A stretch of DNA of 64,000 bases from a virus. Lineage: Duplodnaviria; Caudoviricetes. Each line of letters starts with the position of its first letter. The first letter of the stretch is position 1. The stretch lies in the IMG/VR virus record IMGVR_UViG_3300014208_000023, positions 32,001 to 96,000 of that record. One strand, given 5' to 3'. Shown here piece after piece: positions 15,150-35,672 of the stretch. Made by a program: the position numbers and the translations under genes. The notes under the pieces were generated by a model. It was not told the DNA's origin. It was given only the letters and a program-made list of their open reading frames with translations, and searched no databases.

Positions 15150-15169
15150 TCAGAATCCTTTCTTTAATA

Positions 15170-15203: not shown

Positions 15204-15225
15204 GGTTTAAAGAAGTGAGCCTTAC

Positions 15226-15375: not shown

Positions 15376-15386
15376 ATTCTTCTTTC

Positions 15387-16070: not shown

Positions 16071-16075
16071 TGATA

Positions 16076-18020: not shown

Positions 18021-18170
18021 TTACTTGCCTTTGCGCTTGGACTTGTACTTGTCCGTCTTTGGCTTTTTATTTGCGTTCTCTCCGCCGTGTGGAGGACAGA
18101 AAGGACACTTCTTAGTGGCCTTAGTAATCTTCTTCCACCTACGTCGCTTGCTCTTTGGCGTAGCCCCCAT
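18021..18170 (-). CDS. Small basic CxxC protein (49 aa, not in ORF track)
   Basis: MGATPKSKRRRWKKITKATKKCPFCPPHGGENANKKPKTDKYKSKRKGK*, abuts neighbours. Confidence 0.65.
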   Translation of the reverse strand: MGATPKSKRRRWKKITKATKKCPFCPPHGGENANKKPKTDKYKSKRKGK

Positions 18171-20768
18171 TGTCACTCCACCTTTACGAATGCAATTGCT
18201 CGACGATGCTCATCGATGGTTTCATTGCACTCATTGAGAAACTGTAGAAAGTTTCTTGCGGCCCCAAGCTTTTCGTTTGCTCCTACATGATCGCCAAGTG
18301 CCATTCGATAGACAGCTTCCAATTGAGCCTGGGTAGCTCGTAACTTGTAAAGCTCAAACTGCCGCTCCGCGAATGCTAGCCGATGCGCATGTTCTTGCTT
18401 ATCCATAGGAATCCTTTATCGGTAGGGAGAAGAGAGTTGCCCTCTAACACGAGAGGCATGATGCTCCATTATCCAGTATCGAGCATTAGCTTGGCGCCTT
18501 TTACGAGCACGCCACTTATCTCTAATAACTAGATGTAGCAGATTGAGCCAAGTACCAGCCAGCATTACTGACCAAACAACATACTCGTTCATCATTTACC
18601 CGTCAGAATGAATGGGCGAGACCACGGGCAGTTTTCGCACGGCCTTTTGTGCGTATGCTTCGGATGCTTACAGGCTTCTTGCCAGCGAGCCCAGGCATCA
18701 GCAGCCTCTTCTTCTTTGGACCTTTTCATTTACGTCTCCGAAGATTTTCCCGTATTACAGATCCGCCATATACAGAATAGAAAGTGTCCAGTCCTTTCGG
18801 GTCAATGGCGTATGGCTGGTAAAGATGACAGATATAACACTGCGCCTTGTATCGTTTGATGTATTGCTTCATACACCCTCCCATAGACACAAGAGCAATC
18901 TTGTAGCTATGGGAAGAGGCCAGGCTTAGGGCCTGGCGTTCCTCGGTAACTATTGGTATTAGCGGTTCAAAGGATTAGTTCACTTCATATCAGTTGTGTT
19001 CTTTACGAAGACAGTCAATCCCAGTGACAGATCCAATGTGTGGCATACTAGCCGTTCGGGACAGGATGCGGACAATATAATCCGCTGGTATCCAGACTAG
19101 TTTAGCCATTACCTTAGCGCAAGGGCAGGTACCCGTTTTCATCTATTGGTTGTTATAATTAGATTCGGCTCAAGTATGGCCGTTACTGACCTAGACCTAT
19201 CGATCTAGGTACGTCTTTAGCCGGTCACGTCCGTACGACGTGACGGATATGTTCTACCGGACTCCTGACAGCGCCTAGTGATCGGTGCGTCGTCTTCAAG
19301 AAGATGAGACTGAATCTTATCCCTCAGAGCCGCAACACGCTGATACTTGGAAACGAATGTTGAGGAGCTTGACCGAAGATGCACGGCCTTGTCATGCAGA
19401 GCATCCTGAATCATAGCCAACTCTTCTCGCGAGAACTTCATTCGATTGCGCTCCTACCGGAGAGTTAGTCCGACTTGATACGTGTTACCGTGATGCCAGA
19501 CCTTTACAGTCAGACGATCACTTGAGTATGGAATTAGAGCTTCATACGCGCTCCATGCCTTGACAGCCTCCTTATCGGTGCCGGACTTGGCTAGAACCAG
19601 AAGCGTGTATGCAGAAATTCTCATCCATCCATTCCCATAGCAATCAGGATCTTGCTTTTGTTCCTACGCAGCTTTGCATTCCTGCGCTTCACTACTCGCC
19701 GGGAATTGAAGCCCGGCCCAGCAATTACCTTATCTGCGAGAATGTGATCCTTACGAAGCTTTCTCATTCAGAGACCTTTCGGTAGGTGTGACTTGCTACG
19801 ATAGAAACCGGAAGCCTTACCTCGCTTGATATAGGGCACCTTATTCGCGGCAATCTCCTCGTCAAGATGAGTCTTGACTAGAGCAATGTTACAGTCCAGC
19901 AGACTGAAGTTGCCGTACAGTGAATCCAATCGCGCGGCAATAAAGCCTGCCATTGCCTGCTTGGCAATTTGAATGCACGTAGGATACTTGTCCCAAACCC
20001 AATCATAGGCGGCCATGATCTGCTCGCGGGTAGGAGAGAGCATCTCCACCGACGTAACGTTTGAATCCCAAGTTTCAACGACCGCCTCTGAATCTCCACT
20101 AAGGAAACCATTCGCCGCGATGTGGTTGATTGCATGTTGGTGCAATCGATTGGTTGCATCCTGTTCATCTTCGGGAACGTTGTCGAGAACCACCCTAATC
20201 GTGATAGTCGAATACAGGCGCATCTAGTTCTTTCTCAGTTGGGCAACGATTGAGGTTACGGCAACCTTGATTGCTTCCGTAACCATCAGTTGATTCACGT
20301 CCTTCACAAAGGGAGGTTCGAGCTTAGCGAATGCCTCATTAGCAGCTCGCATGCCTTCCGCGCTGATCTTGCTAAGGTCCCAGATATTGATCTGAGCGCC
20401 TTGAATGCACGTCTTGACAATCGCCTCCACCTTAGCTTCGAGAGCCTTCTCTTCTTTCGTTCTTCGCGGCTTACCCATGTGGTTGTTCCTATGAAGTGAC
20501 GGAGACCTAAACCGCCGTGCATCAGTCCGATTAGGAGTATGACGGCGAATTGCACACTTATGAATATCCAGTTAGCCATTAGACTTTTCTTCCAACCAAG
20601 AGACAGACTGATTAGCGGCCCTTTGTTCGACACGGATAACTAGTAAGGAAATACTAGATTAGCCTTGGCGGCCGAGTATGTATGACGCCCTAAAGCTAGC
20701 CACACATACCCATTGACACCGTGCCTACTTTCTTTGCCTATTCGCGCATAATCAGTCTGACTCTTGGT

Positions 20769-20792
20769 TAGAAGGCGGAGCCGAAGCTCCGC
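20769..20792 (-). terminator. cUUCGg hairpin with CTTCTA tail
   Basis: Minus strand GCGGAG-CTTCGG-CTCCGC-CTTCTA directly after the stop of 20800-21096. Confidence 0.65.
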
Positions 20793-23700
20793 ATCCTAAT
20801 CATCCGATGTAGATGTTTCCCTCTTCGGAGATATCCACGCTGTATCTCCCTTCGTTGTCTTCGGTCTTACGCAGAAGCACAATCAGCGCTTGCTTATCTG
20901 CCTTGACCCAAGTTTTCCCTTCCTTGAAACCATCCTCACTTACCGTGAGAATGACTCCAACATACACATCTGCGCCGACTGATACCGTTGCCAGCGTCTC
21001 TTTGCGAGTCATCAGCATGACATGAGCCTTGCGAGCGGCTTCTTGGTTCCGCTCATCATCAGCCGCTTCTTGTATCCACAACCGATGTTGATACAATTGA
21101 AGTAGAAGACGGCCTTTGCGAGATCGGCCTTGATTGTGTATCGGGACTTGTAGGCACCCTTCACATGCCTACCGACTTCTACGGTAAAGACCGTCTCCGA
21201 CGAGAATGCGATCGGCTTACCGTTGAAGTTGGCGGTAATGATTCTCACCTGCTTATCGTCTTCCGGCATCTTTTTCACTCCTGTATATCCAGCAATGACT
21301 ACCATCAGAAAGGCTTTCCGGGCTCACCCTTCCAGGTGTAGGTGGACTTGATATCCTTGACGGGATTGGCTTCCGAGATTGCCGAATAGATGCTAGTCCA
21401 TCCGTTCTGGCTGAGAAGCTGAACCTCATCACGATTGAGAAGAGAGGCATTCTTCAGAAAGGCCGGATGGGCAGGAACCCAATGGCGCCATTCGAGGTTG
21501 TGCAAGTAAAGAGACTCCATCTTGGCATCCCAATACCCACGCAGATACTCCTTAGCATGCACCGGAAGGTCTGTCCAGCGTGGATCGCTGAAAAGATCCT
21601 TCTCTCTCTGCTGTAGAAGAACTTCGTGTTTCGGCCGAGAGTAGATTGCCAGCAGGAAGATGTTGCAAACTCTCTCCGCAAAAATCTTCTTGCGCTCGAT
21701 AACCTGATTGGTTCTCATTAGAGCTTCACTCCTAGATACGGATGAACATGACCGGCCGGGAAGTGGCCTACGTCATTGACCGCACCACAATAAGGGCACG
21801 GTGACATTGAAAGGTAAGGCGGCTCGGTCCTCAAGTCAACCACCCCACCGCGAGGAAGTTTCCATGCAACATCGATACCGTTCGGGTCGGTAAAGACCGT
21901 GATGCCGTCTTCTTCCGTACGGCAAGTTACCCGTACGAATGTTTCCGGCTTCGCCTTAGCCTTTCGTTTCTCACTCATCGGAGCTTGAAAACATAGTCGT
22001 CCCATGCCTCTTCTAGATCGTTCCAGGTTTCTGAGCCGAGATAGAAAGACCCGTCCGTTGCGTCGATACTTCTACGGCAGAAAGCAGCGAAGTAATCTTT
22101 GTGACTAGACGAGTGAATGGTTGCGGCGGCTTCTTTGATCAGCTTATCGTAAACACGCTCGCTGATTCCATGACCGATCACCTCGGGGCTTAGACCATCT
22201 TCGATGATCTCCTCTGACTGGACTGCACCAGGATAGAGACCCCACGACTTGAAGAATGCACGAACGCTAGTGAACGGGGCCAGCATGTTCTTACTTGCCA
22301 TTCATGCTCCGTGGTAGGTGACGAGGATCCATTCGACAAGATCCATGTTGAACTGAGCGATCCAGATAGGATGATTCAGATGCATCCACTCGGCCGTCTC
22401 TTGCCTGTAAGAATCGTTCAGACGAATCCCAGGCCTATCATCGGCAGCAGCGGCGGCCAAAGAGTAATACTTGCTTACGGCCGCCTTGAGAATTTCCGAG
22501 TTGAAGGCAGGCGCGAGATAGTTACCGCGAGCATACTCCGTCAGCGCGAAAGTATGGCCGGGAATGTTCTCCTTCGCCCACTCGTAAGCCTTAGCCTTAC
22601 TAGCGAAGCATCCTCGGGTAATGATGGAGAACGGGCCGGACTTCTCCGTAGGATGCCACTTCGTTGCTCCAACATGAACATAGGAGAGTAGAATGCTCCA
22701 ATACGTTCGCGGGTCTTCGACGTTGCAGTTACAGACCAGCTCCGTTTGATTGCAGTGAATGCAGAGACTCATTCCTCATCCTTAGTCCTCTCCGATAGAA
22801 GAGGTGGTAGTGAGACATTCTTCGGAAGCTACGCACCGGACTGTAGTAACAATCCCGGCAAAGCCTGTAGTCGGAAAGAGGGTGTAGGTCTTCTCCTTTA
22901 CACCCGAGAGTGCTGCACTTCAATTCTCGCCTGAGTAAGAGTGACGCTTGCACTCCTTAGCTTGAGCGACGGCCGCCACTTGCGAGTCATGCGAGAAGTA
23001 GTATTGCCCAACCGAAGGACAGGTGCAAGGCCGAGATAGCACAATTCTTTTGCAGTCTTCGTGAGTGCAATCGATCATGCCGCATCGGGCAGAAGCCTTG
23101 GAGCAATTACGCATCATCAATACTCCTTTGCGTACCATTCGATACAGGTGATACCAGGCTTCACTTCTCCGTCAGAAGTGAGAATCTTGACTACATCGGC
23201 TCGCAGATAGTAGCAAACCAATTGAGTCAACCTCGTGCGCCAATCGTACCCTTCGCGAGTTTCCATGTCAGCAGGGTACTGCGTAATGAAACTAGGACAC
23301 GTGATGTTGGAGACGATGATGTTTCCTTCCACGCTCTTATGGACAGTCCAATCATCCGTATGTGGCTCCCCACCGATACCTTTCGGGTTATGGACCGTCC
23401 ACGTTTCCAGCAGAGAAAGCTTCGCGGTAGGGGTCAGTTTCATTCGTCCTCGTCCTTATCCGCGTTATGAACCACGAATCCGCCCCTCTCACATAGGGGA
23501 ATGATTTCTGACTCAGGAGGGGATTCCAACTCTCCCTTGTTCGGATCCATCAGTTACTCTCTTGCAGCTTGTGGGCCGCTTCGAGCTTGGCGAACCCTTC
23601 TGCGTGAGAATTGAATACCTTACAGGCATCCGATCCTTCTTCGCCACGATAGGACCTTTCGCTCTCGTGGCTATTGGGTTTGCTCACGTCTACCTCATAG

Positions 23701-24336
23701 ACCACGACATCATCGCCCTGCTTGAGCAATGAGATCACGCGGCCACATGCGGTGTTGGATTCGATCAACACCGCACCATCAGGAAGGTCTGCGCGACTCT
23801 GGCTGATAATGGAATAGATCGCCTTGATCTCTCCACCAACCGCGACACCGGCATGATCCCGCTCGACCTTGACTTCACTCATTGGGAGTTTCCTTTTGCT
23901 TGGGCGGATACAGAAGCCAGGACGAAGTTACCGGTCCAGGCTCTCTACGAATTAGTCCTGCCCGAAGACAGCGACTAACAACATCATAACCAGCCGATTG
24001 TCCAGCGCCAGCCTCTTTTGCAGCTTCGCGAATAATCTTGCCGGGATTCTCAGTAACAAACTGAATGACCTTTTTCATCTTAGGTCCGATCATATTCCCT
24101 CGTGAGCTAACTCTTTATCCCCGGCTAGACTATCAATCTAGCCGGGGATGGTCCGCTCCGTAACAGGCAACCGAATTGGCAGCCTAAAGAGAATGGTTAC
24201 TGACATAGACAGGCTTCTATGGCTGGAGTCCAAAATAGCCTCCGCCTATTCCATATCTGCTAACAAGGATACTACCCGGCCCATATGCTACGGATGAGTC
24301 CGTTAGCGTTACCCGTGGTTCGCGTTACCTGTTAGC

Positions 24337-24364
24337 ATTGTAACCACACTCTTTAGAATGTCAA
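24337..24364 (-). promoter_or_regulatory. Sigma70-type promoter
   Basis: TTGACA-16 nt-TACAAT. Confidence 0.75.
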
Positions 24365-24484
24365 TAGACTATCCCTCCCGATTATCCCATAATCCGTTGC
24401 AACGGCTTGGGGTCGGGAGGGGATCTCCACTACACAATTACTAACTTAGGAATGAGAGTAGCTACTTCTCATAACCATTACAAC

Positions 24485-24632
24485 GAACGGCCCTCATCAG
24501 TAACCGCTTCACGGTTATACGTATTCACCATAGCGCCTGGCCTTTGATACTTGATCAGTTCCTAGTTAGGAAGCCAGTCTGTTGGAATGCCACCTACGTT
24601 CAGTCGTAGGCGTGAATACGTTACGGCCTCTC
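24485..24632 (-). ncRNA. Type II hammerhead-ribozyme-like element (core variant)
   Basis: Stem III 10 bp perfect, GUA triplet, stem I TAACCG/CGGTTA, CTGATGA core, stem II GGCC/GGCC; GTAA instead of GAAA and one extra G. Confidence 0.6.
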
Positions 24633-24728
24633 ACGTGTCTTTGAAGCTTCCCCCATACCCAGACGTTCCGGGGGAAGCATTAGCACCCATAGGGAAGCTT
24701 ACGCTTCCGGTAGTCTAGGGCTGTTCTC

Positions 24729-26487
24729 CTAGGCTTTCCAGCGACTCTCTTTCAGAGGAGAGCCATTGAAGGATCGCCACTCACGAAAGTATCGTCCCTT
24801 GGAATCCCTTTCGTTGTAGTTCGGGCGGACGATTACCGCCTTTCCCTTTGCACGCAGACTCTCTCCGAGAGAGATTGCGTGTTCCAGGTTGGTGAATGTC
24901 GCATCCACGAAACGATCCCCGTATGTGGTAAGATCGCCAACGCACTTACAGGTGATTACAGAGATAGTAGCCTTAGCCATTGAGCCTTGGTCTCCTGGTA
25001 GCTTCTTTTTTTGAACCATCCCCATAGAGACAGGGGCCTAAGCTCCTGTTTACGTCGCTTGGTTGCCTTGATCCGATTGTGATAGATCGCCATAGCCGTG
25101 TGACCACTAAAGAGCCACTTGATCGGAGAGATCATTCCTTGCGTTTGATACCTACCGTACTGCTTCATTCCTTGCCCGCATTGGCAATGATGTTATGGCA
25201 GATTGCTCGGTAGTGCGCAACCACTTTCGGATCGTTCGTGACCTTTCCGGTGCCGGGAATGAACTTCCACTGGATGAACTTCCATGCCAGCTTGTACCTA
25301 CGATCCTGTTCCGGTGTGAGAAACGAGAATAGCTTTCTCGCTTCAACTTCTCTGTCAGAGAGACTCATGTTACGAGAGCTTTCTTGGTGATAGAGTCGGC
25401 CACTTTCTTGAGAGCGAGCACTTCGGCTTCCGCCTTCTCAGCTCTAGCCGTGAGCCTACGAGTAGCAGAATCCGATCCATCGATGAATGCTTCGTTGATC
25501 ACGCGGAACGTTTCGTTGATCTCGTCCTGATCGCGAAGACTCAGATAGTCCTCGATGGTCATGCACTCGTTGACGCAAGCCACATGGTTGAGCTTGTTCA
25601 GGAAGTACCAGGATGCGTAGGAAGTCGTGTTCTGGCAAACCCAGGAACCGGCACCCTCATTCCACGATCCATCCTCTTCTTCGTAACAACCCTCTCCGAT
25701 GTAGCCGAGCGGAAGCGTGAACTTCCGCATGTAGTAACCATCGAAGTTGGCCTTATTACAGATAGCGACGTAGGTGCGAGAAGGTGAAGAGACGATCTTC
25801 TTTTCAGACATTACTGCCTCCTAATTCGGGCCTGTAACAACTTCTGTGTAGCACATGGGTTTAGATTTTACGAGCTATCAGAGGAGACTCGAACCCCTCC
25901 AGCCATGGACTTCACATTATATGCTACAAACCCGAATTAGAAGGGGGAAGGTAGTTAGTCTTCCCCGATCCTTTCTTACTGATAGAGCCAGGCATTGACT
26001 GCCCGGCGAACCTCCGTGCATGCAGCCCGAACATCGAAGGCATTGATCGTGTGCTCCATCACAAGAGGAGGAGGAATCTTGCCCTCCTTCTTGAGAGACA
26101 CCACAACCTCACCCACATACGGATTCTTCGGAATCATTCGACTCTCCTACTTGAACCAGCGTCTAGCTCTTGCTCGGAATGCACGAATCGCTCGTTTCAG
26201 GCAAAGAGAACAATGCCTGGCGTCTCCTTCCTTCATGCCTTGAACTTCTCCATGAGAGCCTTGGCATCCGGGTAGCCGAAAGGTTTCAGAGCCTCCTCGG
26301 CTTGTTCCAGAGCTTTCGGATCGTTCTCGCGTAGAAACGCATTGATCTTCGGGTCGAGAACCATCATCAGTAGCGTTCGAGCCGCTGACTTGCCCTTGCA
26401 CTCTTTCGGGGGAATAAGCTTCTCAATAGCAGCTTGCCTTTCGGGACCGGGAGGAGGCAACATGATGCCATGTCCAGTGCCAGCCAT
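24729..26487 (-). other. Hypothetical CDS (24729-25025, 24956-25168, 25165-25368, 25365-25811, 26233-26487)
   Basis: Contiguous ORFs with strong AGGAGG-type RBS. Confidence 0.7.
25817..25944 (-). promoter_or_regulatory. Long-stem leader element with internal T-loop hairpin; sequesters the RBS of 25365-25811
   Basis: Arms 25817-25830 / 25931-25944, inner stem 25846-55 / 25919-28, GAGGGG-TTCGAGT-CTCCTC. Confidence 0.65.
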
Positions 26488-26677
26488 CAGTGTTGCCCCA
26501 ACGTCTTACGTAATCCTCGATTACCAGACCCAGCGTAGCCTAGGCTGCGGTAGAAACCTCTTACGTAGGCTTCCCAATGTGAGAAGGTAGGAAACTCCTG
26601 CTTGAACCTCATACAATCTTTGGAGGATTGTTTCTGACGTTGGCCATCACTGCGACCCAATTCGCTCGACTGACGCA

Positions 26678-27010
26678 TTAGTGCTGCCCCCACGTCTTTC
26701 CGCCATCGTGAGAATGAACACCAGCAGCGATTGCCTTGGGATTGACCTTTCGTCCGCTCATTCCCTCGGCCTTGAGTATCGCCTGACGGAGAACCCACGA
26801 GTTAGTGGCCCGAAGAGAATTGAAGGCACACACGTCAGAGATACCGTCCCGATCCTTCCATCCTTGGAAGACGATCGCGCCGTTCGTTCCGATTCCGATT
26901 CTCACGGTACCGGTCTGAATGTACTGTTCCAGACGCTTGAGAGCTTGTTCCACTTGAGACATTCTCTGAGTGAGAGTCTGACCCTGAGATAGCGCTGTCA
27001 TGCACGCCAT
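26678..27010 (-). CDS. Conserved-type hypothetical protein (GVHSHDGG.TW..H C-terminus)
   Basis: GAGGT RBS; third gene of the AAA module. Confidence 0.75.
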   Translation of the reverse strand: MACMTALSQGQTLTQRMSQVEQALKRLEQYIQTGTVRIGIGTNGAIVFQGWKDRDGISDVCAFNSLRATNSWVLRQAILKAEGMSGRKVNPKAIAAGVHSHDGGKTWGQH

Positions 27011-27033
27011 TGTGATTACCTCGTTTGAGTTAT

Positions 27034-27140
27034 CCTTCTAACTCTATTCAATAGACATGCGCCAGATAAGCTCCGGCCTAGTTCCTATCTGAATCTATTG
27101 AATAGAGCTAGAAGGGGGAGACTTGGTTAGAGTCTCCCCT
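27034..27140 (-). repeat. Intergenic long-stem element plus GGGGAG hairpin
   Basis: Arms 27034-27055 / 27094-27115; homologous to 27999-28118. Confidence 0.8.
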
Positions 27141-27146
27141 CATCTA

Positions 27147-27977
27147 TCAGTTAGAAAGATCTAGAGAGTCGTCCGCGGCCATGGGATTCAGGGCCATCGT
27201 TCCGGCGACGGTTCCGACTTCTTCGGAGAAGTCGAGATCCTGCGCCGCCACTTGCGGAGCCTCCTCTTCTTTCGTGAGCGTAGGCGGTTCCTCATAGTCG
27301 AGGAACACTTTCTGAGCCTTCTCCAGTGCGAGAAGACTGACGCGGTAGTCCTGAACCACGTCGATAGCGACCGATCCCTTCTTCTTGATCGTCTTCGCCA
27401 TCTCACGTGCGGCGGTTCGTGCAAGCTCGATTGCAGTCCTCGCCTCGCCCTGTTCCTTCTCTTGCATCATCTCGGCCAGTTGATTGGCCTTAGCGATTGC
27501 TTCCCGAATGGCCTCGGGATCCATCTTGTTGATCGCCCCGCTCATCTCAGCGAGAAGACTGCGCATCTCTCCGGCGATTGCCATTGCAGTCTGCTCGTCG
27601 TTGGCGAGAAGCTTTGCCTTGAGGATGTAGAAGCGCACCTTCGTGTAGACAGACTTCGCATTGAAGTCGTCCATGAGTTGCCGGGCGATCTTGATTCCCT
27701 GGTCCAGCTCCGCCTCCTTATCTTCCGGGCAGAGAAGACAGAACGGAGTTTTGACGCAGAGACGACGGATCTGGTACAGGACATTGCCCCGCACCTTGAC
27801 CGCTTCCTCGTGCTCCTCCACGTCGAAGATTGTCTTCTTCGTGGTCTTCTCTTCGGTGAGCACGCCTTCGGTGCTCTGATCGCTCTCCTCGTGGAGAGTC
27901 TCGTATTCGATACCTCCCTTCATGCGGGAAGTCAGTGCGATCATGAATCCGGGTCGAAGCAGTTGCATCTTTGCCAT
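27147..27977 (-). CDS. Helical/coiled-coil hypothetical protein associated with the AAA ATPase (start revised to MAKMQ)
   Basis: GAGG RBS 5 nt before ATG at 27977; long helical ORF with acidic tail. Confidence 0.8.
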   Translation of the reverse strand: MAKMQLLRPGFMIALTSRMKGGIEYETLHEESDQSTEGVLTEEKTTKKTIFDVEEHEEAVKVRGNVLYQIRRLCVKTPFCLLCPEDKEAELDQGIKIARQLMDDFNAKSVYTKVRFYILKAKLLANDEQTAMAIAGEMRSLLAEMSGAINKMDPEAIREAIAKANQLAEMMQEKEQGEARTAIELARTAAREMAKTIKKKGSVAIDVVQDYRVSLLALEKAQKVFLDYEEPPTLTKEEEAPQVAAQDLDFSEEVGTVAGTMALNPMAADDSLDLSN

Positions 27978-27998
27978 TGTGTCCTCGTTTGGAGTTAT

Positions 27999-28118
27999 CC
28001 CTCTAACTCGGTTCAATTAGACTCGGGCGCTCAACCAAGGGACAACGCCCGGTATATTGCTAAGCCACCACCTAATTGAACCGAGTTAGAAGGGGGAGTC
28101 TGTGTTAGAAACTCCCCT
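27999..28118 (-). repeat. Intergenic long-stem element plus GGGGAG hairpin
   Basis: Perfect 18-bp inverted repeat CTAACTCGGTTCAATTAG / CTAATTGAACCGAGTTAG. Confidence 0.85.
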
Positions 28119-28129
28119 CCTAATTGCCG

Positions 28130-29749
28130 TCAGTCCAGATCCAGCAGATCGTTGGAGCCAGACTTAGCGGCCACCTTCTCAGGCTTGCTTGCGCTCAGGG
28201 CCTTGTCTGCCATGAACGTACGAATCTCTCCGAGCTTGACCGCCATCGTCAGAGACAATGGTACCACATTCTCGGCCGCCGTCAAGAGATCCTTTGTCGT
28301 GATCTGACGTTCTCCGTCGTTGAAGGCCGCGAACATGGCTTCCGGGATGATGGAAGCAATCTCCGCGCCGACCCATCCTTCCGTTTTCTTAGTGAGAGCC
28401 GGAACGTCGATCCCTTCTACCCTACCAGACTGCTTGAGGCAGGTAGAGAGAATCTGTTCCCGATCCGTTGCGGTCGGAAGGTCCACCCAAAACACTTGGT
28501 CGAACCTACCTTTACGCATCAGCTCAGGCGGAAGTGCCCGAACGTCGTTTGCCGTAGCAATGACGAACACCGGGGCCTTGCACTCTTGCATCCAGGTAAG
28601 AATCGTTCCAAGCTGATCCTTGGAAACTCCGCCATCCTCACCACCGGCAGCCCCGAGAGACTTGTCGATCTCATCGAGCCAGAGAACGCAAGGGGCAAGG
28701 GCTTCTGCCATTGCGAGAGCCTTACGAATGCTGGCTTCAGAGTCTCCGACATACTTGGACTTGCGTGCTCCAAGGTCGCACTTGAGTAGCGGCATCTGCC
28801 ATGCGGAAGACACGCACTTCGCCGTGAGACTCTTTCCACCACCGGGAACACCGGCAAGTAGAATGCCCTTCGGAGACTTGAGCCCGTAAGCCCTTGCCGC
28901 CGCTGAAAACCCGTTCTTACGGATACTCAGCCAGTCTTTCAGGACTTCCAGACCGCCGACCGCTTCCATGCCGAGCGGATCGGGGTCGATCCATTCCAGC
29001 ACTTTCTCACGTGCAATGACTTGCTTCTTTTCGGAAGAGATCACTGCCGGGTCGATGCGCTTGAGAGTAACGAGACTCCGATTGAAGCAGCTCTGAATCT
29101 CGGCCGCCGACAACCCAAGAGCCGCATCGATTGCAGACTCACGGGTAGTTGCGTTCGGAATCTCCACCTTGGCCGGATCTAGGCGGAGAGAATCGAAGAT
29201 CCTTTCCACGTCAGAACGGTCAGGCATCGGGTAGTCGATCAGATTGGCCTGACCGATGAGATCCTGGGGAATCTCCGAAGACGGCGTGAGAATGACGATC
29301 GCTCTCTGTTCAGCAGAGGGGGACGTTCCCGCTTCCGTCGCCGTGTTCCGAATTGCCCGGAGAGTGATTGGATCCTTGAAGGCATTGATATCCTTCAAGA
29401 CATACAGACACCGATCTGGGACTTCGCGAATTGCCTGTAGGACCACGAGAGGATCCGTACAGGGCTGACCACCGCTAGAAAGCGGCGTGATGCTTGCAGC
29501 CTTCTTCTCTCCGTAAGAAGACTGCGCCTGAGTGAATCCGAGAGTGACGAGCTTTGTTTCGCCCTTCTCGGTTCCGTATTCCGTCAGACCACTCACGCAA
29601 TCCCAGAAGCGGATTCGCATGTTGGCCGGAAGGGCATTGATAAGCGCCCCTTCCACACGCTTCTCCTCACGAGAGGAGATCCAGAGAAGAGAGACTCTGG
29701 CACGAAGAAGTGCCGTAATCTCCGCATTGACCTTTGCAGATCGAGACAT
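28130..29749 (-). CDS. AAA+ ATPase, Ycf46-like
   Basis: Walker A GVPGGGKS, Walker B VLWLDEID, SRH ATANDVRALPPELMRKGRFD; degenerate N-terminal AAA-like domain. Confidence 0.93.
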   Translation of the reverse strand: MSRSAKVNAEITALLRARVSLLWISSREEKRVEGALINALPANMRIRFWDCVSGLTEYGTEKGETKLVTLGFTQAQSSYGEKKAASITPLSSGGQPCTDPLVVLQAIREVPDRCLYVLKDINAFKDPITLRAIRNTATEAGTSPSAEQRAIVILTPSSEIPQDLIGQANLIDYPMPDRSDVERIFDSLRLDPAKVEIPNATTRESAIDAALGLSAAEIQSCFNRSLVTLKRIDPAVISSEKKQVIAREKVLEWIDPDPLGMEAVGGLEVLKDWLSIRKNGFSAAARAYGLKSPKGILLAGVPGGGKSLTAKCVSSAWQMPLLKCDLGARKSKYVGDSEASIRKALAMAEALAPCVLWLDEIDKSLGAAGGEDGGVSKDQLGTILTWMQECKAPVFVIATANDVRALPPELMRKGRFDQVFWVDLPTATDREQILSTCLKQSGRVEGIDVPALTKKTEGWVGAEIASIIPEAMFAAFNDGERQITTKDLLTAAENVVPLSLTMAVKLGEIRTFMADKALSASKPEKVAAKSGSNDLLDLD

Positions 29750-29811
29750 TCGTTTTCTCCCTAAAAAGAGATTATCTACGATAGAGTCTGTAACGTTCCT
29801 CCTACCTTGAG

Positions 29812-29840
29812 ACTGTAACTCATACGAGCTAGAGTGTCAA
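29812..29840 (-). promoter_or_regulatory. Sigma70-type promoter embedded in an inverted repeat
   Basis: TTGACA-17 nt-TACAGT; flanked by arms 29798-29814 / 29833-29849. Confidence 0.7.
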
Positions 29841-29880
29841 GGTAGAAGGGGAGGATTGCGCCTCCCCAACTACCGATCGG

Positions 29881-30063
29881 CTACTTCGTGTAGACGTTGA
29901 TCCCGATCTTCATGCCCATGTCGGAAACGTCCGGGGGCGAAACCGGGCCTTCCGTGGTAGCGACGATGGTGGTCTTCCCGCTGGCAGAAGGACCGAACTT
30001 TTTGGTCAGGTCGATCTTGATCACGAGGATATCACCCTCGCGGCTCATCTGAATGTTTTTCAT
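29881..30063 (-). CDS. Small conserved-type protein (FGPSASGKTTIVATT...IGINVY)
   Basis: Motif recalled from a widespread ~60-aa hypothetical family; start revised to MKNIQ. Confidence 0.7.
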   Translation of the reverse strand: MKNIQMSREGDILVIKIDLTKKFGPSASGKTTIVATTEGPVSPPDVSDMGMKIGINVYTK

Positions 30064-30091
30064 TGACTTGGACTCCCGATTGTGAGTGAGA

Positions 30092-30349
30092 CTACGAAGA
30101 GAGATCCTGGAAAGGAATCTCCTTCTCCACACGCCTACGGTTCTCCCTGATCTGCCGTTGTAGATCCTTGATTGCGTTGTCTGCCGTGTTACCTGCGCCG
30201 GTAAAACCGATGCAAGCCTTGACCGCTTGCCAGAGAGGTTTCTTACCTCCTCTGACTTTCTGGCAAGTCACATGCCAGTAAAAGGGAACCGGCTTCACTT
30301 GGGATGGCTCGTGATGGTGAATGCCGCACTCCACGCCTTGATCCCCCAC
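30092..30349 (-). CDS. Hypothetical protein (HicB-like GNTADNAIKDL segment)
   Basis: G-x-T-x-x-x-A-I-x-x-L pattern only. Confidence 0.45.
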   Translation of the reverse strand: MGDQGVECGIHHHEPSQVKPVPFYWHVTCQKVRGGKKPLWQAVKACIGFTGAGNTADNAIKDLQRQIRENRRRVEKEIPFQDLSS

Positions 30350-30398
30350 CTACCACCATAAAGGTGGTTCATGCGGAATTGCGTGGAAGCGGCAACGA

Positions 30399-31037
30399 TC
30401 ATGCCTTCGATGATTGCTTCCATCTGATATCCACAATACACATTGCGGATCCTTTCTTGCGCTTGGCGTTGCTTTCGAGACCTTGAGACACGTAGGGACG
30501 AACAGAAACGATCTTGGCTCCTACGTCAGAACAGGACTGACGCAGATAGTCAATCCGACCATCCAGATCGGAGAAGCCATCATCCCGGCCGTTCCTAAAG
30601 GTAACAAGAGTCTTACCTTTGTACTTGGCTTCGGTCAAGGCCTGTAGGACCGGAAGTGCAATGTGGGTCGCTTCTACGACATTGCAAGCCAGATCGATAT
30701 CGACGGCCCCGAGATTCTTAGCCCCACGACGAATGAGGTAAGGGCGAATCATGTCCTGAATGGGCCGGTGAATAGGAGGAAGTATGTGTAGGCGCGACTT
30801 CAACTTGCGGAAGTCTGGAATCACATACTCGGTTGCCTTGATCACTCCAATGTCGGTATCGACCACTTGGATCGCACCCTTCCACCGAAGGACATTCAGC
30901 ACCCCCAAGAGACCGTGACTGATTGTTAGAATCTCCTTGGTAGGAAGAATCTTATACAACCACTCACACCTCTCATTGTCTTTGGCGTAGGAGATCGGAG
31001 TGTGCTGCATTGAGCACACATTGTTCCGCTTTCCCAC
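30399..31037 (-). CDS. SAM-methyltransferase-fold-like protein
   Basis: IQVVDTD, AVDIDLAC, TLVTFRNGRDD; aligns by eye with 15387-16070. Confidence 0.45.
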   Translation of the reverse strand: MGKRNNVCSMQHTPISYAKDNERCEWLYKILPTKEILTISHGLLGVLNVLRWKGAIQVVDTDIGVIKATEYVIPDFRKLKSRLHILPPIHRPIQDMIRPYLIRRGAKNLGAVDIDLACNVVEATHIALPVLQALTEAKYKGKTLVTFRNGRDDGFSDLDGRIDYLRQSCSDVGAKIVSVRPYVSQGLESNAKRKKGSAMCIVDIRWKQSSKA

Positions 31038-31431
31038 TTAGACCTGAGCCGAAGCCCAGACCACGAAGCATGCCAGACCGACGAAGATCAGATTGGCCCC
31101 GGTGATTGCGTAACCACCGACAACCATGGCGACGTGATGGATGCTCGGGAACCAAGTCCCGAGAAGACCGAGAAGCAAGATGCTTCCCAGAGTGAGGAGA
31201 ACGAAGACGATTGCGTTTGCCATTGTCCCTCTACTTGTGAGAGCCGGAATCGTATCCGGGCGTAGGTGACTCAGCCCAACGGAGAATCCTTTGATCTTCC
31301 GCCTGCTTACGCTCCTCCTCCCTCTGAATCCCGGTTTGCACGCCTTCGACCGTATGAACGACCTTGACGAAGCCTACCACGAACACGAGAGTGACGCCAA
31401 GAACAATCAGACAGAGAATGAGCTTGAGCAT
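31038..31431 (-). other. Two small membrane proteins (31038-31223, 31231-31431)
   Basis: Hydrophobic TM segments, RBS present. Confidence 0.7.
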
Positions 31432-31606
31432 TGATTCTCCCTTAGAAACAACTAGAGGCAGTCTAACGCGCTACACATTCCTAGACGTTCGGCCTTCAGT
31501 GACCCTTACTAGATCCAGCCGAGGCTAGATGCTTCAGGAGTATGCACGCCCTAGTTATCCGGTAGTGTTTTTCTCACATACGTTTTCATGTATGTGGCGC
31601 ATTAGA

Positions 31607-31731
31607 ATCCCTCTAATCAAGTCCCAAGAACACTTGCCATTGTGATCCTGCTGCTAGTTAGACTAGAGGAGGTTTCCAGACGAGCGGCATGGAACTTGAT
31701 TAGAGGGATGAGAGGGATCGGCCCCTCATCC
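31607..31731 (-). repeat. Intergenic long-stem element plus hairpin
   Basis: Arms 31607-31624 / 31691-31709, hairpin 31704-31731. Confidence 0.7.
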
Positions 31732-32466
31732 GTCTATGTCAGAAGTACGGCTTAGGCTTCTTACCTTTGCCGAGGTTGATGTTCTGGATGAGAAGCTCCT
31801 TAGCCGCCTCATCCAACTGAGAGGTGTCGAGAGGAAACTCCCCCTTGTACGGGGGAGAATGCTCCTCGGTCTCGTGCTCCTCATCGGGATCGAACCTACG
31901 CGACTTGCCCACTTCTACTTCGCCTTTCTACGTAAGAGTACGAACGTTCCCAGGAGTAGCAGACCAACACATCCAAACGGTTGCGGCGGCTTGCTTGACC
32001 TTGGAACAATCAGGGATTCGGTTATTGTGGAGAACCGATCGAGCCATTGCGGCGATCAGTAGGTCTCCAATCGTGGACGAGCACATCATGCTAGCATCCA
32101 CGATAGCAGTTTGTCAACCAAGAAGTCACTCTTGGACCTACAGCGCGGATCGTACTGAGGCTTGTAAACCACAACCAATCCGCACGGGTCTTCCAAGCAA
32201 CCCTCGGGAATCCACGCCCACGACCAGCAGCGGCGAATGTCAGGTGTGGTTGAACATTCGCCGGCTTCGACTAGGGAAGCCAATTCGTCCTCGGAAGGAA
32301 GACGACGTTGGGGGAATGGGGGAAACCCATACCCTCACGCTGGAAGGGGTCGGCGGCAACAAGAGCCGCTTTCAGATCCTTGACCTTGACCATACCAAGC
32401 TCTGCCTTGTGCTGAGCGTGGAACGGGCAAGTGTGCTGTCTGCAATCGTGATCCATATGTGTGGAT

Positions 32467-32612
32467 CCTCCTCCGTCTCAACTAGATACGACCGGGAGCC
32501 TTTCTAGAATGCTCCTAATACTGGGGGAAAGTCTGGCAGTTGGGTTAGTGTCCAGTAAGTCCCCTGTATGTAGTTGAGACGGAGAGGGATGAGGGATTGG
32601 TTAGATCCCTCC
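32467..32612 (-). repeat. Intergenic long-stem element covering the RBS, plus hairpin
   Basis: Arms 32467-32489 / 32566-32588. Confidence 0.7.
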
Positions 32613-32796
32613 TCACCTACTCACGGCTTCGGAATCTCCAATGACTTGATCCTCTCACCAGAGGTAGTCATGGAATGAGAAGTGTCAACCTTGCCGTTCT
32701 CGATTACCCTAGACACCCAAAGATCCGCATCCGGGTAATAAGGACAGTGAGAAACAACGACGTAGACCGTGGAGTGTTCCCGAAAGAACTTCCCGA

Positions 32797-32994
32797 TCAT
32801 TCGACGTGCGCGATCTGAAAGACCTCTTCGGTCTCTCCGTCAACAAGCAACTCCTTCACCTTGTACGTGTGAAAGAGATGCTCACACTGAATAGCCGGGA
32901 GAAAGTCTCTCTCGACTTCAGCAAGATCCTTGGCCCGTACGATCCTGACTTCCAGGGCGCACGGACCTTTGGCAGTGAGAACGAACAACGCCAT
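32797..32994 (-). CDS. Hypothetical protein
   Basis: GAGGAGGT RBS 6 nt before ATG. Confidence 0.75.
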   Translation of the reverse strand: MALFVLTAKGPCALEVRIVRAKDLAEVERDFLPAIQCEHLFHTYKVKELLVDGETEEVFQIAHVE

Positions 32995-33000
32995 GATGTT

Positions 33001-33123
33001 ACCTCCTCGCTATTACCTCTATCCGCAAGGGGTATTAGCTACCCCATCACCGCCCAGCTTTCTAGGACATAGTGGCATCTAGAAGTAATAGCGAGAAGGT
33101 AGAAAGGCTATGGCCCTTCCACC
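33001..33123 (-). repeat. Intergenic long-stem element covering the RBS, plus hairpin
   Basis: Arms 33001-33021 / 33080-33100, both mismatches G-U on the minus strand. Confidence 0.75.
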
Positions 33124-33227
33124 TATCTCCGAATGAGAGTAGGGCCGCGTTGGTTAGCGGGCGGTCTCATTCCCTGGTAGTGAGAGTGTAGGGAGCGGCG
33201 GCCCCCTACACTTTAGGCTGCGATGAT

Positions 33228-33797
33228 TCACGCCGACTTCCTCTTCTGAGAATTGCTCTCAGTGAGCCAAGCCGGACGGGGCTTCGACTTGTAGGCTTCC
33301 AACCTCGCAAGTCTGGCTTTGCGGGTCTCCTCGCTTTCCATCTTGGCGAAAGCTTCCGCTTCCAAGGTCGGAGAGACCGGGGGCGGGGTCATGGGCTTGT
33401 CGAGAGCAGGCGGCGGAATGAACCGCGCTTGCTCCCGAACAACCGGAACGAACGTGTGAGGAGCGCGAACAACCTCGCGCTCCTTCTTCGCGAGCTTGGT
33501 AGCCTCGCGCTTCGCCGTGGCCGATGCTTTCTTGGCATCGACCTTGGAACGCTCCTCCGGCGAGAGAGCGTTGTAAGCGGCGACCTTGGCTCGCTTCCGA
33601 GTCTTGATCGCTCGCTTCTCGGCGTACTCGGCCGCCAGCGCCTTCCGCTCCTCGTGAGAGAGGCGGATCTGCTGGCCGGTTGCGAAGTCCCGTCGGTAGT
33701 ACGGGATTCCCATCGGCAACTTCGGCTCGCTCGGTCCCTCGGGCACGACTGCAACCGCGAACGGTAGCTGAAACCTCGGATGCGTTCCGATATTCAC
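33228..33797 (-). CDS. Basic Ala/Lys/Arg/Pro-rich hypothetical protein, first gene of the left block
   Basis: AGGAGG RBS + GTG; biased codon usage. Confidence 0.8.
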   Translation of the reverse strand: MNIGTHPRFQLPFAVAVVPEGPSEPKLPMGIPYYRRDFATGQQIRLSHEERKALAAEYAEKRAIKTRKRAKVAAYNALSPEERSKVDAKKASATAKREATKLAKKEREVVRAPHTFVPVVREQARFIPPPALDKPMTPPPVSPTLEAEAFAKMESEETRKARLARLEAYKSKPRPAWLTESNSQKRKSA

Positions 33798-33827
33798 TTG
33801 AGCCTCCTAGCAATTAGGTTTGACCAC

Positions 33828-33937
33828 CTATCTCTACCGGTAATAGAGGAGAATTGACTTATTGCCGCTACAAGAGACGGCATCCTTTATTACCAGTAGA
33901 GATAGAAGGGAGAGTCACACTGCCAATGTGACCCTCA
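33828..33937 (-). repeat. Intergenic long-stem element plus hairpin
   Basis: Arms 33828-33850 / 33883-33905, hairpin 33905-33937. Confidence 0.7.
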
Positions 33938-33939
33938 CC

Positions 33940-34730
33940 TCCTACCCTTCGGGACCACTTATCTACGACGCCTTACGTCTCTCGCACCTCAGTCTCACCG
34001 AACCTAACGACTAGCCTGTAAAGCCAATCTGTCAGCTATCGCCTCACGTCTTCCCGGTACTAGATTAGCCATCCCAAGGGCGGCCCACCATTCCCAGGCA
34101 TGTAGACATTACTACGATTGCCTTTCTTAGATTCAGGAAACCTTGGATAGAAAGCACGTTGCCTCCGTCCTTAGCATCCCAGCGTAATCCGGCTCCAATC
34201 CTCCTATTGAAGCCTACGTATGGCGGTTTCTTAGACCTAGACCATCCCACTAGCTTGCTACTCATCCCTTGATTGTCCTATCGGATTGACTATTCAGCGC
34301 GGTACCTCTAAGGCCAGCGAGCTTGTCAGGCTCACACTCCAAAGACGCACGTTGCTTAGGCGATCCACCTTTCGGTGGCTGTCGAAAGTCTCCTCAGTCT
34401 AGCTACTCCTCTAGTCGCGCCGGCCGTTCCCTTGGAAACGGTTAGCACCTATTGGAGCCTTTGAAAGATTCAACTTTCCTGGCCTTAGTTCGCGATAGGA
34501 TCGAAAGGACCCCTTGCTTACTAGCGTTCGGTGCCGGGAACGGTTCCGGCGCAGTTTCATTGCTTGCTAGTAGGAAGCCCCTACTAGTCCGAGCGATATA
34601 TCCTCCGCTACCCGACTTTACGGGTAGTTACGGATTATGGCTGTATCGGGATAAACCCCACTACCCGTTAGGGTAGCCGCCACCGCTAGCAATGCTTTTC
34701 ACGGGAGTTTCGGCCCCGTGTTCCCGTCTC
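33940..34730 (-). ncRNA. Large (~800 nt) structured non-coding RNA candidate
   Basis: Directly downstream of a consensus promoter, no credible ORF, many hairpins and perfect long-range helices. Confidence 0.7.
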
Positions 34731-34734
34731 AACT

Positions 34735-34763
34735 AACCTAGCACCTACGCGCTAGGCTGTCAA
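34735..34763 (-). promoter_or_regulatory. Sigma70-type promoter of the large ncRNA
   Basis: TTGACA-17 nt-TAGGTT with TG just upstream of -10. Confidence 0.75.
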
Positions 34764-34798
34764 GGTATGTTTAGACGTTTGAAAGTGTCGCCTTACGC

Positions 34799-34961
34799 GC
34801 TTTCCCTTTCTTCCGTCTCGCCGTTCACTCTAGCAGTGTTTGCTTTAGTGTCCAGCGGGTTTCGGAAGATTGTTTCGGCGCTACCTGCTTTCCTTTCTTC
34901 CGTCTCGCCGTTCACTCTAGCAGTGTTTGCTTTAGCGTCCAGCGGTTTCGGAAGATTGTTT
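34799..34961. repeat. Two ~75-bp near-identical direct repeats
   Basis: 34799-34875 and 34887-34961 (core CTTTCTTCCGTCTCGCCGTTCACTCTAGCAGTGTTTGCTTTAG). Confidence 0.95.
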
Positions 34962-35113
34962 AGCAGGTTTCGGCTTTGGTTCCTTTCTGGTAGCGACTCG
35001 ATAGCAGGTAATGCACGACCCTTGCCAACCTTGACCGGCCCTATCAATCTGCTAACTATGCGACATTGCTAGGCTATTCGGTTTCCGCTGCTACTGGAAT
35101 TGGGGTGGTGGGG

Positions 35114-35393: not shown

Positions 35394-35672
35394 CTATCTC
35401 AACCTATAAGACCCAAACTGCTTAATCGTCTTTCTTCTATGACAATTAGCACATCTCATCTGACATTGAGCTATTTCTGCCACTAACCTATCTAACGAAC
35501 AGTTATTGGTTATAAGCCTATTGATACCATAGGACTTCCTGCCTACGTGGTCAAACTCTAATACTACCGGATCATTCTCTCCGCAATCTACACATGGATT
35601 ACTTAATAGATATCGATATACGTATTCTCTTTTTATATCAGTTCTTCTTTTATCACCAATCTTGTCAGCCAT
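35394..35672 (-). CDS. Small HNH endonuclease
   Basis: PCVDCG..LEFDH...CQMRCANCHRRKT. Confidence 0.9.
   Translation of the reverse strand: MADKIGDKRRTDIKREYVYRYLLSNPCVDCGENDPVVLEFDHVGRKSYGINRLITNNCSLDRLVAEIAQCQMRCANCHRRKTIKQFGSYRLR

What the first reader, a model, noticed from the sequence alone, without database searches (positions are those of the whole stretch)
33940..34730. ~800-nt promoter-driven, multi-domain structured RNA at the head of the early region
Seen (minus strand): a near-consensus promoter (34735-34763) is followed by ~790 nt with no credible ORF, ending at a terminator-like hairpin (33905-33937). Local hairpins include CACGGG/CCCGTG, CTACCC-TAAC-GGGTAG, CTACCCG/CGGGTAG, CTAGTAGG/CCTACTAG, GCCGG/CCGGC, GAAAG/CTTTC and CCACC-GAAA-GGTGG (GNRA). 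Perfect nested long-range helices are CTAAGGCCAG/CTGGCCTTAG (34479-88/34308-17) and CCTATCG/CGATAGG (34493-99/34277-83). A 9-bp crossing helix GGCTCCAAT/ATTGGAGCC (34451-59/34191-99) implies a pseudoknot. Known: this size and complexity match large ornate RNAs (GOLLD, ROOL, OLE) and ribozymes. I cannot match it to any family; it is the best candidate here for an undescribed element.
Basis: partly seen in the sequence, partly recalled or inferred. Interest (0 to 1): 0.9.

Follow-up and report, generated by a model that had tools for sequence, protein, structure and literature searches.

The report
New giant structured RNA in huge phages
A 428-kb phage and its relatives carry a conserved, roughly 830-940-base non-coding RNA with a complex fold that matches no known RNA family. 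It sits behind tandem promoters at the head of a long run of small genes.

Summary
The finding holds up. Window 34734-33901 (minus strand) is a real, conserved, structured non-coding RNA in a 428,320-bp virus genome.

- **No known family:** Rfam 15 gives no match at gathering score, and only noise at E up to 10.
- **Relatives:** I recovered homologues from four other phage lineages, three full length (79% and about 69% identity) and one 3' part, plus fragments of close relatives. Homology runs from about 50 nt downstream of the promoter (34681) to the terminal stem (33901).
- **Not coding:** there is no shared ORF, and most indels are not multiples of three.
- **Conserved fold:** the four-sequence consensus fold scores z = -11.8 against column shuffles. 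The reverse complement scores -6.7.
- **Covariation:** 53 of 203 consensus pairs change on both sides, against 7-15 in slid controls.
- **Promoters:** TTGAC-N16/17-TAGnnT elements are conserved and tandem in every lineage.
- **Transcription:** short contigs of the conserved core occur in five RNA-seq runs of five studies (soil and a viral fraction).

CCTATCG/CGATAGG and most of the hairpins are supported.

Function is unknown. I favour a stable, trans-acting architectural or RNP RNA released from the head of the presumed early transcript. A cis-acting leader or switch is the main rival. The scan had noted this same stretch once before, from an overlapping window, but not on other DNA.

The parts
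34914..34941 (-). Upstream promoter-like copy 1 (TGGACG, 16-nt spacer, TG-n-TAGAGT), inside the first ~77-nt direct repeat
   Evidence: Regex scan; self-BLAST shows the 77-nt tandem repeat
34827..34854 (-). Upstream promoter-like copy 2 (TGGACA, 16-nt spacer, TAGAGT with TG)
   Evidence: 9 of 12 matches, TG present
34735..34763 (-). Proximal promoter TTGACA-17-TAGGTT with TG. An inverted repeat lies in the spacer and differs in sequence in each lineage.
   Evidence: Equivalent tandem copies occur in L006 (135, 235) and L008 (2912, 3000), and one copy in L011 (2965).
33901..34734 (-). Body of the structured RNA, about 830 nt here and 863-943 nt in relatives
   Evidence: Homology spans 34681-33901. 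Consensus fold z = -11.8; 53 covarying pairs; no Rfam hit.
34560..34734 (-). Variable 5' region with covarying hairpins at 34677-60, 34635-00 (absent in L011) and 34587-67. It carries indels even in a 97%-identical relative.
34533..34550 (-). Invariant hairpin GCCGG-loop-CCGGC
   Evidence: no variation, so untested by covariation
34486..34526 (-). 5' strand of the long composite helix that closes the central domain. GAUCCUAUCG can also pair with the upstream GGGGUC (alternative hairpin).
   Evidence: Pairs with 34292-34248; compensatory changes in L008 and L011.
34293..34485 (-). Central domain: a long arm capped by hairpin 34447-34418 (invariant tip UUCCAAGGG), the CCACC/GGUGG hairpin, and a variable third hairpin
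34248..34292 (-). 3' strand of the long composite helix, within the most conserved block of the RNA
34191..34245 (-). Two covarying hairpins: 34245-20 (loop CUAAGAA) and 34214-191 (loop AGGAGG in four lineages, a different loop in L016)
33965..34168 (-). 3' domain: a 19-bp helix (34148-27/34007-33986) enclosing a stacked arm that ends in a loop with invariant CCCUUGGG, plus hairpin 34029-09
33901..33946 (-). Terminal ~20-bp stem (GGUAGGAGG...CCUUCUAUC) with a covarying top. A candidate processing or termination site.
33830..33909 (-). Downstream long stem that competes for CCUUCUAUC (alternative pairing). It lies just before the Shine-Dalgarno site of the next gene.
   Evidence: window, L008, L011
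33228..33797 (-). Conserved, Lys/Arg/Ala/Glu-rich 189-aa gene immediately downstream. No promoter-like site was found between it and the RNA.
   Evidence: No Pfam or PHROG match.

Best explanation
This is a previously undescribed family of large structured non-coding RNA, carried by a clade of roughly 430-kb phages from groundwater, freshwater and soil.

It is read from the minus strand, from two or three tandem sigma-70-like promoters (TTGAC-N16/17-TAGnnT). These lie at the point where the genome's long leftward run of genes begins. The RNA folds into:
- a variable 5' region;
- a central domain closed by a long composite helix;
- a 3' domain;
- a terminal ~20-bp stem.

Inferred, not shown: the terminal stem releases the RNA from the polycistronic transcript by cleavage or termination, and the RNA then acts in trans as a stable architectural or RNP RNA during host takeover. 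The invariant complementary tips CCAAGGG and CCCUUGG may form an intra- or intermolecular loop-loop contact, as seen in self-assembling ornate RNAs.
For: Shown:
- No Rfam family matches.
- The RNA is single copy in its own genome.
- Homologues at 79%, 69% and about 69% identity, plus a distant partial one at E = 1e-20. Blocks of up to 56 invariant bases sit between variable, indel-rich helices.
- There is no shared ORF, and 12 of 13, 18 of 20 and 19 of 27 indels are not multiples of three.
- Consensus fold -163.9 kcal/mol against -87.8 +/- 6.5 for column shuffles, z = -11.8.
- Of 203 consensus pairs, 89.9% of cells are standard pairs and 53 pairs covary on both sides. Slid controls give 33-45% and 7-15.
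- The strand is set by 118 G-U cells against 20 A-C, and by a weaker reverse complement at z = -6.7.
- The promoter element is conserved and tandem in all lineages.
- Five RNA-seq runs of five studies hold contigs of the core and of nothing else in the 6.5-20 kb laid.

Bearing on a trans role:
- Long invariant unpaired or junction stretches.
- CCAAGGG and CCCUUGG are invariant in all five lineages while their stems covary.
- The RNA is followed by the same hairpin-plus-long-stem punctuation that follows the protein genes downstream (earlier notes e1-5374035 and e1-5374048).
Against: - Only four full-length lineages are available, so covariation is counted in cells and not in independent events. 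No R-scape test was possible.
- The consensus was derived from the same sequences, which inflates the percentage paired.
- The RNA-seq evidence consists of short, low-depth contigs found by a k-mer index. The flanks of diverged relatives would not pass the 80-85% identity filter, DNA carry-over is possible, and contigs give no strand or ends.
- Nothing shows that the RNA is cut free, stable or oligomeric.
- No promoter was found between the RNA and the next gene, so it is at least physically a leader.
- Two three-way alternative pairings look like switches.
- The AGGAGG loop is not universal: it is absent in L016.
Confidence: 0.5

Rival explanations
1. The RNA is a cis-acting leader or riboregulator of the early operon. 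It stays attached to the mRNA and switches between alternative pairings to control read-through, processing or translation of the genes behind it. This would be a very large analogue of attenuators or of the HK022 put RNA.
For: - No promoter-like site lies between the RNA end and the 189-aa gene.
- CCUUCUAUC can pair either upstream with an SD-like GGUAGGAGG or downstream with GAUAGGUGG just before the real SD. Both options are kept in every lineage, including a matched 1-nt insertion in L011.
- GAUCCUAUCG likewise has two covarying partners.
Against: - 830-940 nt, with domains conserved far from the 3' switch, is much more than known leaders need.
- Terminator-like sites are not enriched downstream: 11 found against 15.6 expected.
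- The downstream region has its own TTGACA promoters at 32117, 29840, 24364 and 16101.
Confidence: 0.25
2. The RNA is a decoy or sponge that titrates a host factor or a defence system early in infection, for example the ribosome or anti-SD, RNA polymerase, an RNase or an RNA-sensing defence.
For: - It is made first and from tandem promoters.
- It is purine-rich and has several GGAGG motifs, one in an exposed loop conserved in four lineages.
Against: - The AGGAGG loop is replaced in L016.
- The host is unknown, so no mimicry could be tested.
- No Rfam similarity to 6S, rRNA, tmRNA or leader families.
Confidence: 0.12
3. The transcript is origin-associated and primes or activates replication through an R-loop, like ColE1 RNA II or the T4 and T7 origin transcripts.
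For:
- The transcript is G- and A-rich.
Against: - The genome-wide cumulative GC skew has no origin-type turn here, and the skew follows gene direction.
- Deep conservation of peripheral hairpins and loops is not expected of a primer.
Confidence: 0.06
4. The region is non-functional or mis-read: decayed coding DNA, a chance GC-rich spacer, or a DNA-level element.
For: None was found beyond the small number of lineages.
Against: z = -11.8 for the consensus fold, 53 covarying pairs, strand-specific G-U pairs, and invariant blocks in sequences only 69-79% identical overall.
Confidence: 0.03

Closest known systems
GOLLD, ROOL and OLE 'ornate large' RNAs (Rfam RF01998, RF03087, RF01071; cryo-EM in bioRxiv 10.1101/2024.12.08.627333)
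   Same: - Size class of 600-900 nt, with many covarying helices and long conserved non-helical stretches.
- Phage association, as for GOLLD and ROOL.
- Function unknown.
- Conserved complementary loops that could make kissing contacts.
   Different: - No covariance-model match, even at E = 10.
- No adjacent tRNA genes.
- Fixed position behind tandem promoters at the head of a transcription unit in ~430-kb phages.
- Oligomerisation is untested.
Left end of the phage T7 early region (tandem A1-A3 host promoters, untranslated leader, RNase III site R0.3) - from general knowledge
   Same: - Tandem sigma-70-type promoters followed by a non-coding stretch.
- A long duplex before the first protein gene.
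- Further long stems between the downstream genes.
   Different: - To my knowledge the T7 leader is not a conserved multi-domain fold.
- Here the body covaries across lineages.
- RNase III cleavage was not tested.
phi29 pRNA - from general knowledge
   Same: A phage non-coding RNA encoded at the genome end behind an early promoter. It works in trans and oligomerises through loop-loop pairing.
   Different: - pRNA is about 170 nt and binds the portal.
- No homology, and no evidence here of a packaging role.
HK022 put RNA; P4 CI and P1 C4 leader-derived RNAs - from general knowledge
   Same: RNAs formed from the first part of an early transcript that regulate that same transcript.
   Different: - Those are 70-200 nt with defined targets.
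- Downstream terminators are not enriched here.

Membership tests
GOLLD (RF01998) | Match to the family covariance model at gathering score | tested here: not met
   cmscan of the whole window found 0 hits. The sensitive scan of 33700-35100 at E up to 10 found only mir-214, sucA and similar noise.
ROOL (RF03087) and OLE (RF01071) | Match to the family covariance model | tested here: not met
Group I and II introns, RNase P, tmRNA, 6S, small ribozymes | Match to an Rfam model, or ARAGORN for tmRNA | tested here: not met
   No flanking exons or ORF either.
Large ornate structured ncRNA (descriptive kind) | Longer than 500 nt, non-coding, conserved across lineages | tested here: met
   840-943 nt in four lineages plus one partial. 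No shared ORF, and indels break the frames.
Large ornate structured ncRNA (descriptive kind) | Many helices supported by compensatory change, beyond controls | tested here: met
   53 of 203 pairs covary against 7-15 in slid controls. Alignment z = -11.8. Caveat: few lineages and no R-scape.
Large ornate structured ncRNA (descriptive kind) | Homo-oligomeric assembly | not testable with these tools
   Only a lead: CCAAGGG and CCCUUGG are invariant in five lineages.
Sigma-70 promoter | -35 and -10 hexamers at 16-18 nt spacing | tested here: inconclusive
   -35 matches 6 of 6, spacer 17, -10 matches 3 of 6 with an upstream TG. The generic scan missed it, but it is conserved and tandem in all lineages.
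Intrinsic terminator | GC-rich hairpin followed by a free U tract | tested here: inconclusive
   A 12-bp stem with tail CCUUCUAUCU passes a lenient rule. The tail is paired in the 20-bp stem or in the downstream stem.
RNase III processing site (T7-type) | Roughly 20 bp of near-continuous duplex; cleavage by RNase III | not testable with these tools
   A duplex of 20 pairs is conserved. Cleavage is unknown.
Processive antitermination RNA (put-like) | Acts on an array of downstream terminators | tested here: not met
   Terminator-like sites in 14500-34400: 11 found against 15.6 +/- 4.2 expected.

The most novel reading that the evidence does not exclude
This is a new class of giant phage RNA, the first thing made when a ~430-kb phage starts expressing its genome. 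It folds into an autonomous multi-domain particle, possibly self-assembling through the invariant CCAAGGG/CCCUUGG tips or working with the basic protein encoded next to it, and carries out a host-takeover or catalytic job that no known RNA family performs.
Probability: 0.35. Interest if true: 0.85.

Novelty: new variant of a known kind. Interest (0 to 1): 0.72.

Why it matters
Very few large, intricately folded bacterial or phage RNAs are known, and the best-studied ones (GOLLD, ROOL, OLE) recently turned out to build RNA-only cages and dimers of unknown purpose.

This candidate is of the same size class and has three advantages:
- a defined promoter;
- a defined position at the head of a huge phage's gene series;
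- homologues divergent enough to give a first structure model.

It is a concrete target for cryo-EM, SHAPE and function tests. It may also show what huge phages do in the first moments of infection.

Tried and rejected
- **Phage records:** BLASTN of the region against 50,697 phage records found no match.
- **AAA-ATPase relatives:** IMG/VR relatives of the nearby AAA ATPase (L001-L005, 41-47% identity) have no similar RNA by BLASTN, nhmmer or the 3'-domain covariance model R1, and no synteny.
- **Downstream gene in IMG/VR:** the search found none.
- **Exact-pattern scans:** three conserved blocks searched in viral contigs, two in metagenome contigs and one in genome contigs, all with zero hits. 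The family is absent or excluded there.
- **Routes that worked:** a spurious 66-aa ORF called inside the RNA, and the downstream 189-aa gene.
- **Representative-library search with the 189-aa protein:** it added only two weak relatives. L016 carries a diverged RNA.
- **L015:** it has a 1.9-kb gene-free GC-rich gap in the same position, but only its terminal stem aligns. nhmmer --max and model R1 with filters off gave nothing significant, so homology is not shown.
- **Structure-aware aligners:** mafft-qinsi and mafft-xinsi could not run. I used MAFFT plus averaged pair probabilities instead.
- **Host clue:** AAA-ATPase hits in cultured phages are all below 60% identity and spread over many hosts.
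- **Literature:** searches found no description of this RNA.

Full report
**Setting.** The window is bases 32001-96000 of a single 428,320-bp contig that the tools treat as a virus record. It carries phage genes such as an NAD-dependent ligase, HNH endonucleases and a phage-type AAA ATPase. Nearly all long ORFs lie on the minus strand, except in a block at about 67-100 kb of the genome. The region under study sits exactly where the leftward series begins. G+C rises to 0.54-0.58 just left of that point and drops to about 0.38 right of it. The first 60 kb of the leftward series holds mostly small ORFs. That fits an early region, but it is an inference.

**The observation.**
- The promoter is TTGACA, a 17-nt spacer, then TAGGTT preceded by TG. 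The -10 matches the consensus at only 3 of 6 positions, and the generic scan misses it.
- On the minus strand the longest ORF is 66 aa.
- The 836-nt stretch folds at -333.8 kcal/mol against -287.6 +/- 8.5 for shuffles, z = -5.5.
- Rfam 15 has no match in the whole window at gathering score. Between 33700 and 35100 it gives only noise at E up to 10.
- ARAGORN finds no tRNA or tmRNA.
- The stretch has no paralogue in its own genome, apart from a 77-nt tandem repeat upstream.

**Finding relatives.** Public phage records, IMG/VR, the JGI metagenome set and the GTDB genomes gave nothing. Two indirect routes worked.
- A 66-aa ORF that gene callers had predicted inside the RNA led to a 1,130-bp NCBI metagenome contig, L006.
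- The conserved 189-aa gene just downstream led to five further contigs.

| Locus | Relation to window | Source |
|---|---|---|
| L006 | 78.9% identical over 793 columns, window 34681-33901 | |
| L008 (= L007 = L009), from a 430,963-bp contig | 69.2% over the same span | |
| L011 (= L012) | about 69% in pieces | |
| L013 | 97% copy of the 3' 550 nt | |
| L014 | shorter 3' fragment, close to the window | |
| L010 | shorter 3' fragment, 95% identical to L006 | |
| L016 | distant 3' part, nhmmer E = 1.3e-20 | |

Similarity ends at the terminal stem. It begins about 50 nt downstream of the promoter. Upstream of that point only the promoter motif itself recurs.

**It does not code.** No stop-free frame is shared among the four full-length sequences. 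Indels relative to the window are mostly not multiples of three: 12 of 13, 18 of 20 and 19 of 27. A 2-nt indel breaks the 66-aa ORF in L006. Conservation is blocky. Runs of up to 56 invariant bases between the window and L006 alternate with stretches that change freely.

**The fold is conserved.**
- RNAalifold on the four full-length sequences gives -163.9 kcal/mol, against -87.8 +/- 6.5 for 60 column shuffles that keep gap and conservation patterns. That is z = -11.8.
- The reverse complement gives only -107.4, z = -6.7. The consensus pairs hold 118 G-U cells against 20 A-C, so the folding strand is the minus strand, as the promoter orientation implies.
- A consensus built from averaged pair probabilities has 203 pairs. 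Of its cells, 89.9% are standard pairs and 53 pairs change on both sides. With the 3' partner slid by 1-3 columns the figures are 33-45% and 7-15.
- Independent minimum-energy folds of the four sequences show the same architecture where the sequences differ.

Caveats: there are only four full-length lineages, cells are not independent events, and the consensus was derived from these same sequences.

**Anatomy, 5' to 3' in window coordinates**.
- *Variable 5' region (34734-34560).* It holds covarying hairpins at 34677-60, 34635-00 (deleted in L011) and 34587-67.
- *Invariant hairpin (34550-33).*
- *Central domain.* It is closed by that helix and has a long arm capped by hairpin 34447-18, whose tip UUCCAAGGG is invariant while its stem changes at four pairs. 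It also holds the CCACC/GGUGG hairpin and a variable third hairpin.
- *Two covarying hairpins (34245-20 and 34214-191).*
- *3' domain.* A 19-bp helix (34148-27/34007-33986) encloses a stacked arm whose end loop carries invariant CCCUUGGG, plus hairpin 34029-09.
- *Terminal ~20-bp stem (33946-33901).*

- The 3' arm of the 10-bp helix CTAAGGCCAG/CTGGCCTTAG is not conserved in any homologue.
- The 9-bp "pseudoknot" is replaced by two local pairings that do covary: GGCUUCAAU/AUUGGAGCC with 4 compensatory pairs, and GCUCC/GGAGU.

**Alternative pairings.** Two segments each have two covarying partners.
- GAUCCUAUCG pairs either with the upstream GGGGUC or with the distant CGAUAGGA.
- CCUUCUAUC at the 3' end pairs either with the SD-like GGUAGGAGG upstream or with GAUAGGUGG downstream, just before the ribosome-binding site of the next gene. 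Minimum-energy folds choose differently in different lineages, and L011 carries a matched 1-nt insertion in all three strands.

**Loop-loop lead.** The tips CCAAGGG and CCCUUGG are complementary over 7 nt and invariant in all five lineages. This is a candidate loop-loop contact. Because it is invariant, covariation cannot test it.

**Promoters.** Each lineage carries the same element, TTGAC, a 16-17 nt spacer, then TAG(G/A)(G/T)T.
- The window has one proximal copy and two weaker copies in the 77-nt repeats.
- L006 and L008 have two copies each.
- L011 has at least one copy.
- Copies are spaced 88-100 nt apart.
- The spacers contain inverted repeats that differ in sequence between lineages. 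I cannot explain this.

**Transcription.** The core's 31-mers occur in 20 public runs of 18 studies, covering groundwater, lakes, rivers, wetland, soil and wastewater. These include seven RNA-labelled runs of six studies.

| Run | Contig on the core | Mismatches |
|---|---|---|
| X13 | 34220-34384 | 1 |
| X17 | 34062-34254 | 4 |
| X19 | 34478-34553 | 2 |
| X26 | 34479-34553 | 3 |
| X25 | 34151-34238 | 2 |

No other credible piece of the 6.5 to 19.9 kb laid was found in these runs. This agrees with an abundant transcript but is weak evidence, for four reasons:
- the runs were chosen by these k-mers;
- the flanks of diverged relatives would not pass the identity filter;
- contigs give neither strand nor ends;
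- DNA carry-over is possible.

**What it most likely is and does.** The firm conclusion, at about 0.9 confidence, is a new family of large structured non-coding RNA. So far it is confined to a clade of roughly 430-kb phages, and it is read from tandem promoters at the head of the leftward gene series.

The mechanism is inferred.
- *Favoured reading.* I favour a stable trans-acting architectural or RNP RNA, set free at the terminal long stem. About 0.5 is my confidence in the whole favoured statement, mechanism included. Three observations support it. The body is far larger and more deeply conserved than known leaders. It has long invariant non-helical stretches. It is followed by the same hairpin-plus-long-stem punctuation that separates the protein genes downstream (earlier notes).
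- *Main rival.* The main rival, at 0.25, is a cis-acting leader or switch. The two alternative pairings support it, as does the lack of a promoter before the next gene. Against a put-like antiterminator, terminator-like sites are not enriched downstream, and internal TTGACA promoters exist.
- *Less likely.* A decoy role and an origin-primer role are possible. The AGGAGG loop is not universal, and the genome-wide skew shows no origin-type turn here.

**Comparison with known systems.** In size, ornateness and phage association it resembles GOLLD and ROOL, which assemble into RNA-only cages (bioRxiv 10.1101/2024.12.08.627333). It fails their covariance models, so it is not a member. In layout it resembles the T7 left end, with tandem host promoters, an untranslated stretch and a long duplex before the first gene. 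Unlike that leader, its body is a conserved fold. I rate it a new variant of a known kind: a new family among large ornate phage RNAs.

Noticed in passing
window 34799-34960, and L006:135-262, L008:2912-3027: The ~77-nt tandem repeats upstream of the RNA each contain a promoter-like element (TGGAC-16-TAGAGT with TG). Relatives also have two promoter copies 88-100 nt apart. The repeats therefore look like promoter duplications, not a separate RNA module. The spacers hold inverted repeats that differ in sequence between lineages, which is unexplained.
   Followed up: partly
whole genome G000 (window = 32001-96000): Nearly all long ORFs are on the minus strand except at about 67-100 kb. G+C is highest (0.54) just downstream of the RNA and decays gradually along the leftward series to about 0.36-0.40. 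Long ORFs are scarce in the first ~60 kb. This is a composition gradient along the direction of transcription.
   Followed up: partly
L015:541-2481: A more distant relative has its homologue of the downstream gene at 41% identity over 75 aa. It has AT-rich iteron-like repeats, tandem TTGACC elements and then a 1.9-kb gene-free GC-rich stretch in the same position. Only its terminal stem (about 2281-2340) aligns with the family. It may be a very diverged or an analogous RNA.
   Followed up: partly
window 33228-33797 (-): The first protein gene after the RNA encodes a conserved 189-aa Lys/Arg/Ala/Glu-rich protein with a PPPALDKP...PPPVSP segment. It has no Pfam or PHROG match and co-occurs with the RNA in every lineage found, although that is how the lineages were found. 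It is a candidate partner, untested.
   Followed up: partly
window 32088-32117, 29812-29840, 24337-24364, 16073-16101 (-): Further promoter-like sites with a perfect TTGACA -35 lie inside the leftward region, so the downstream genes need not depend only on read-through from the RNA's promoters.
   Followed up: no
window 35394-35672 (-): A small HNH-type ORF (92 aa, weak Pfam match) sits in the AT-rich side just upstream of the repeats. It is not conserved at this position in relatives.
   Followed up: no
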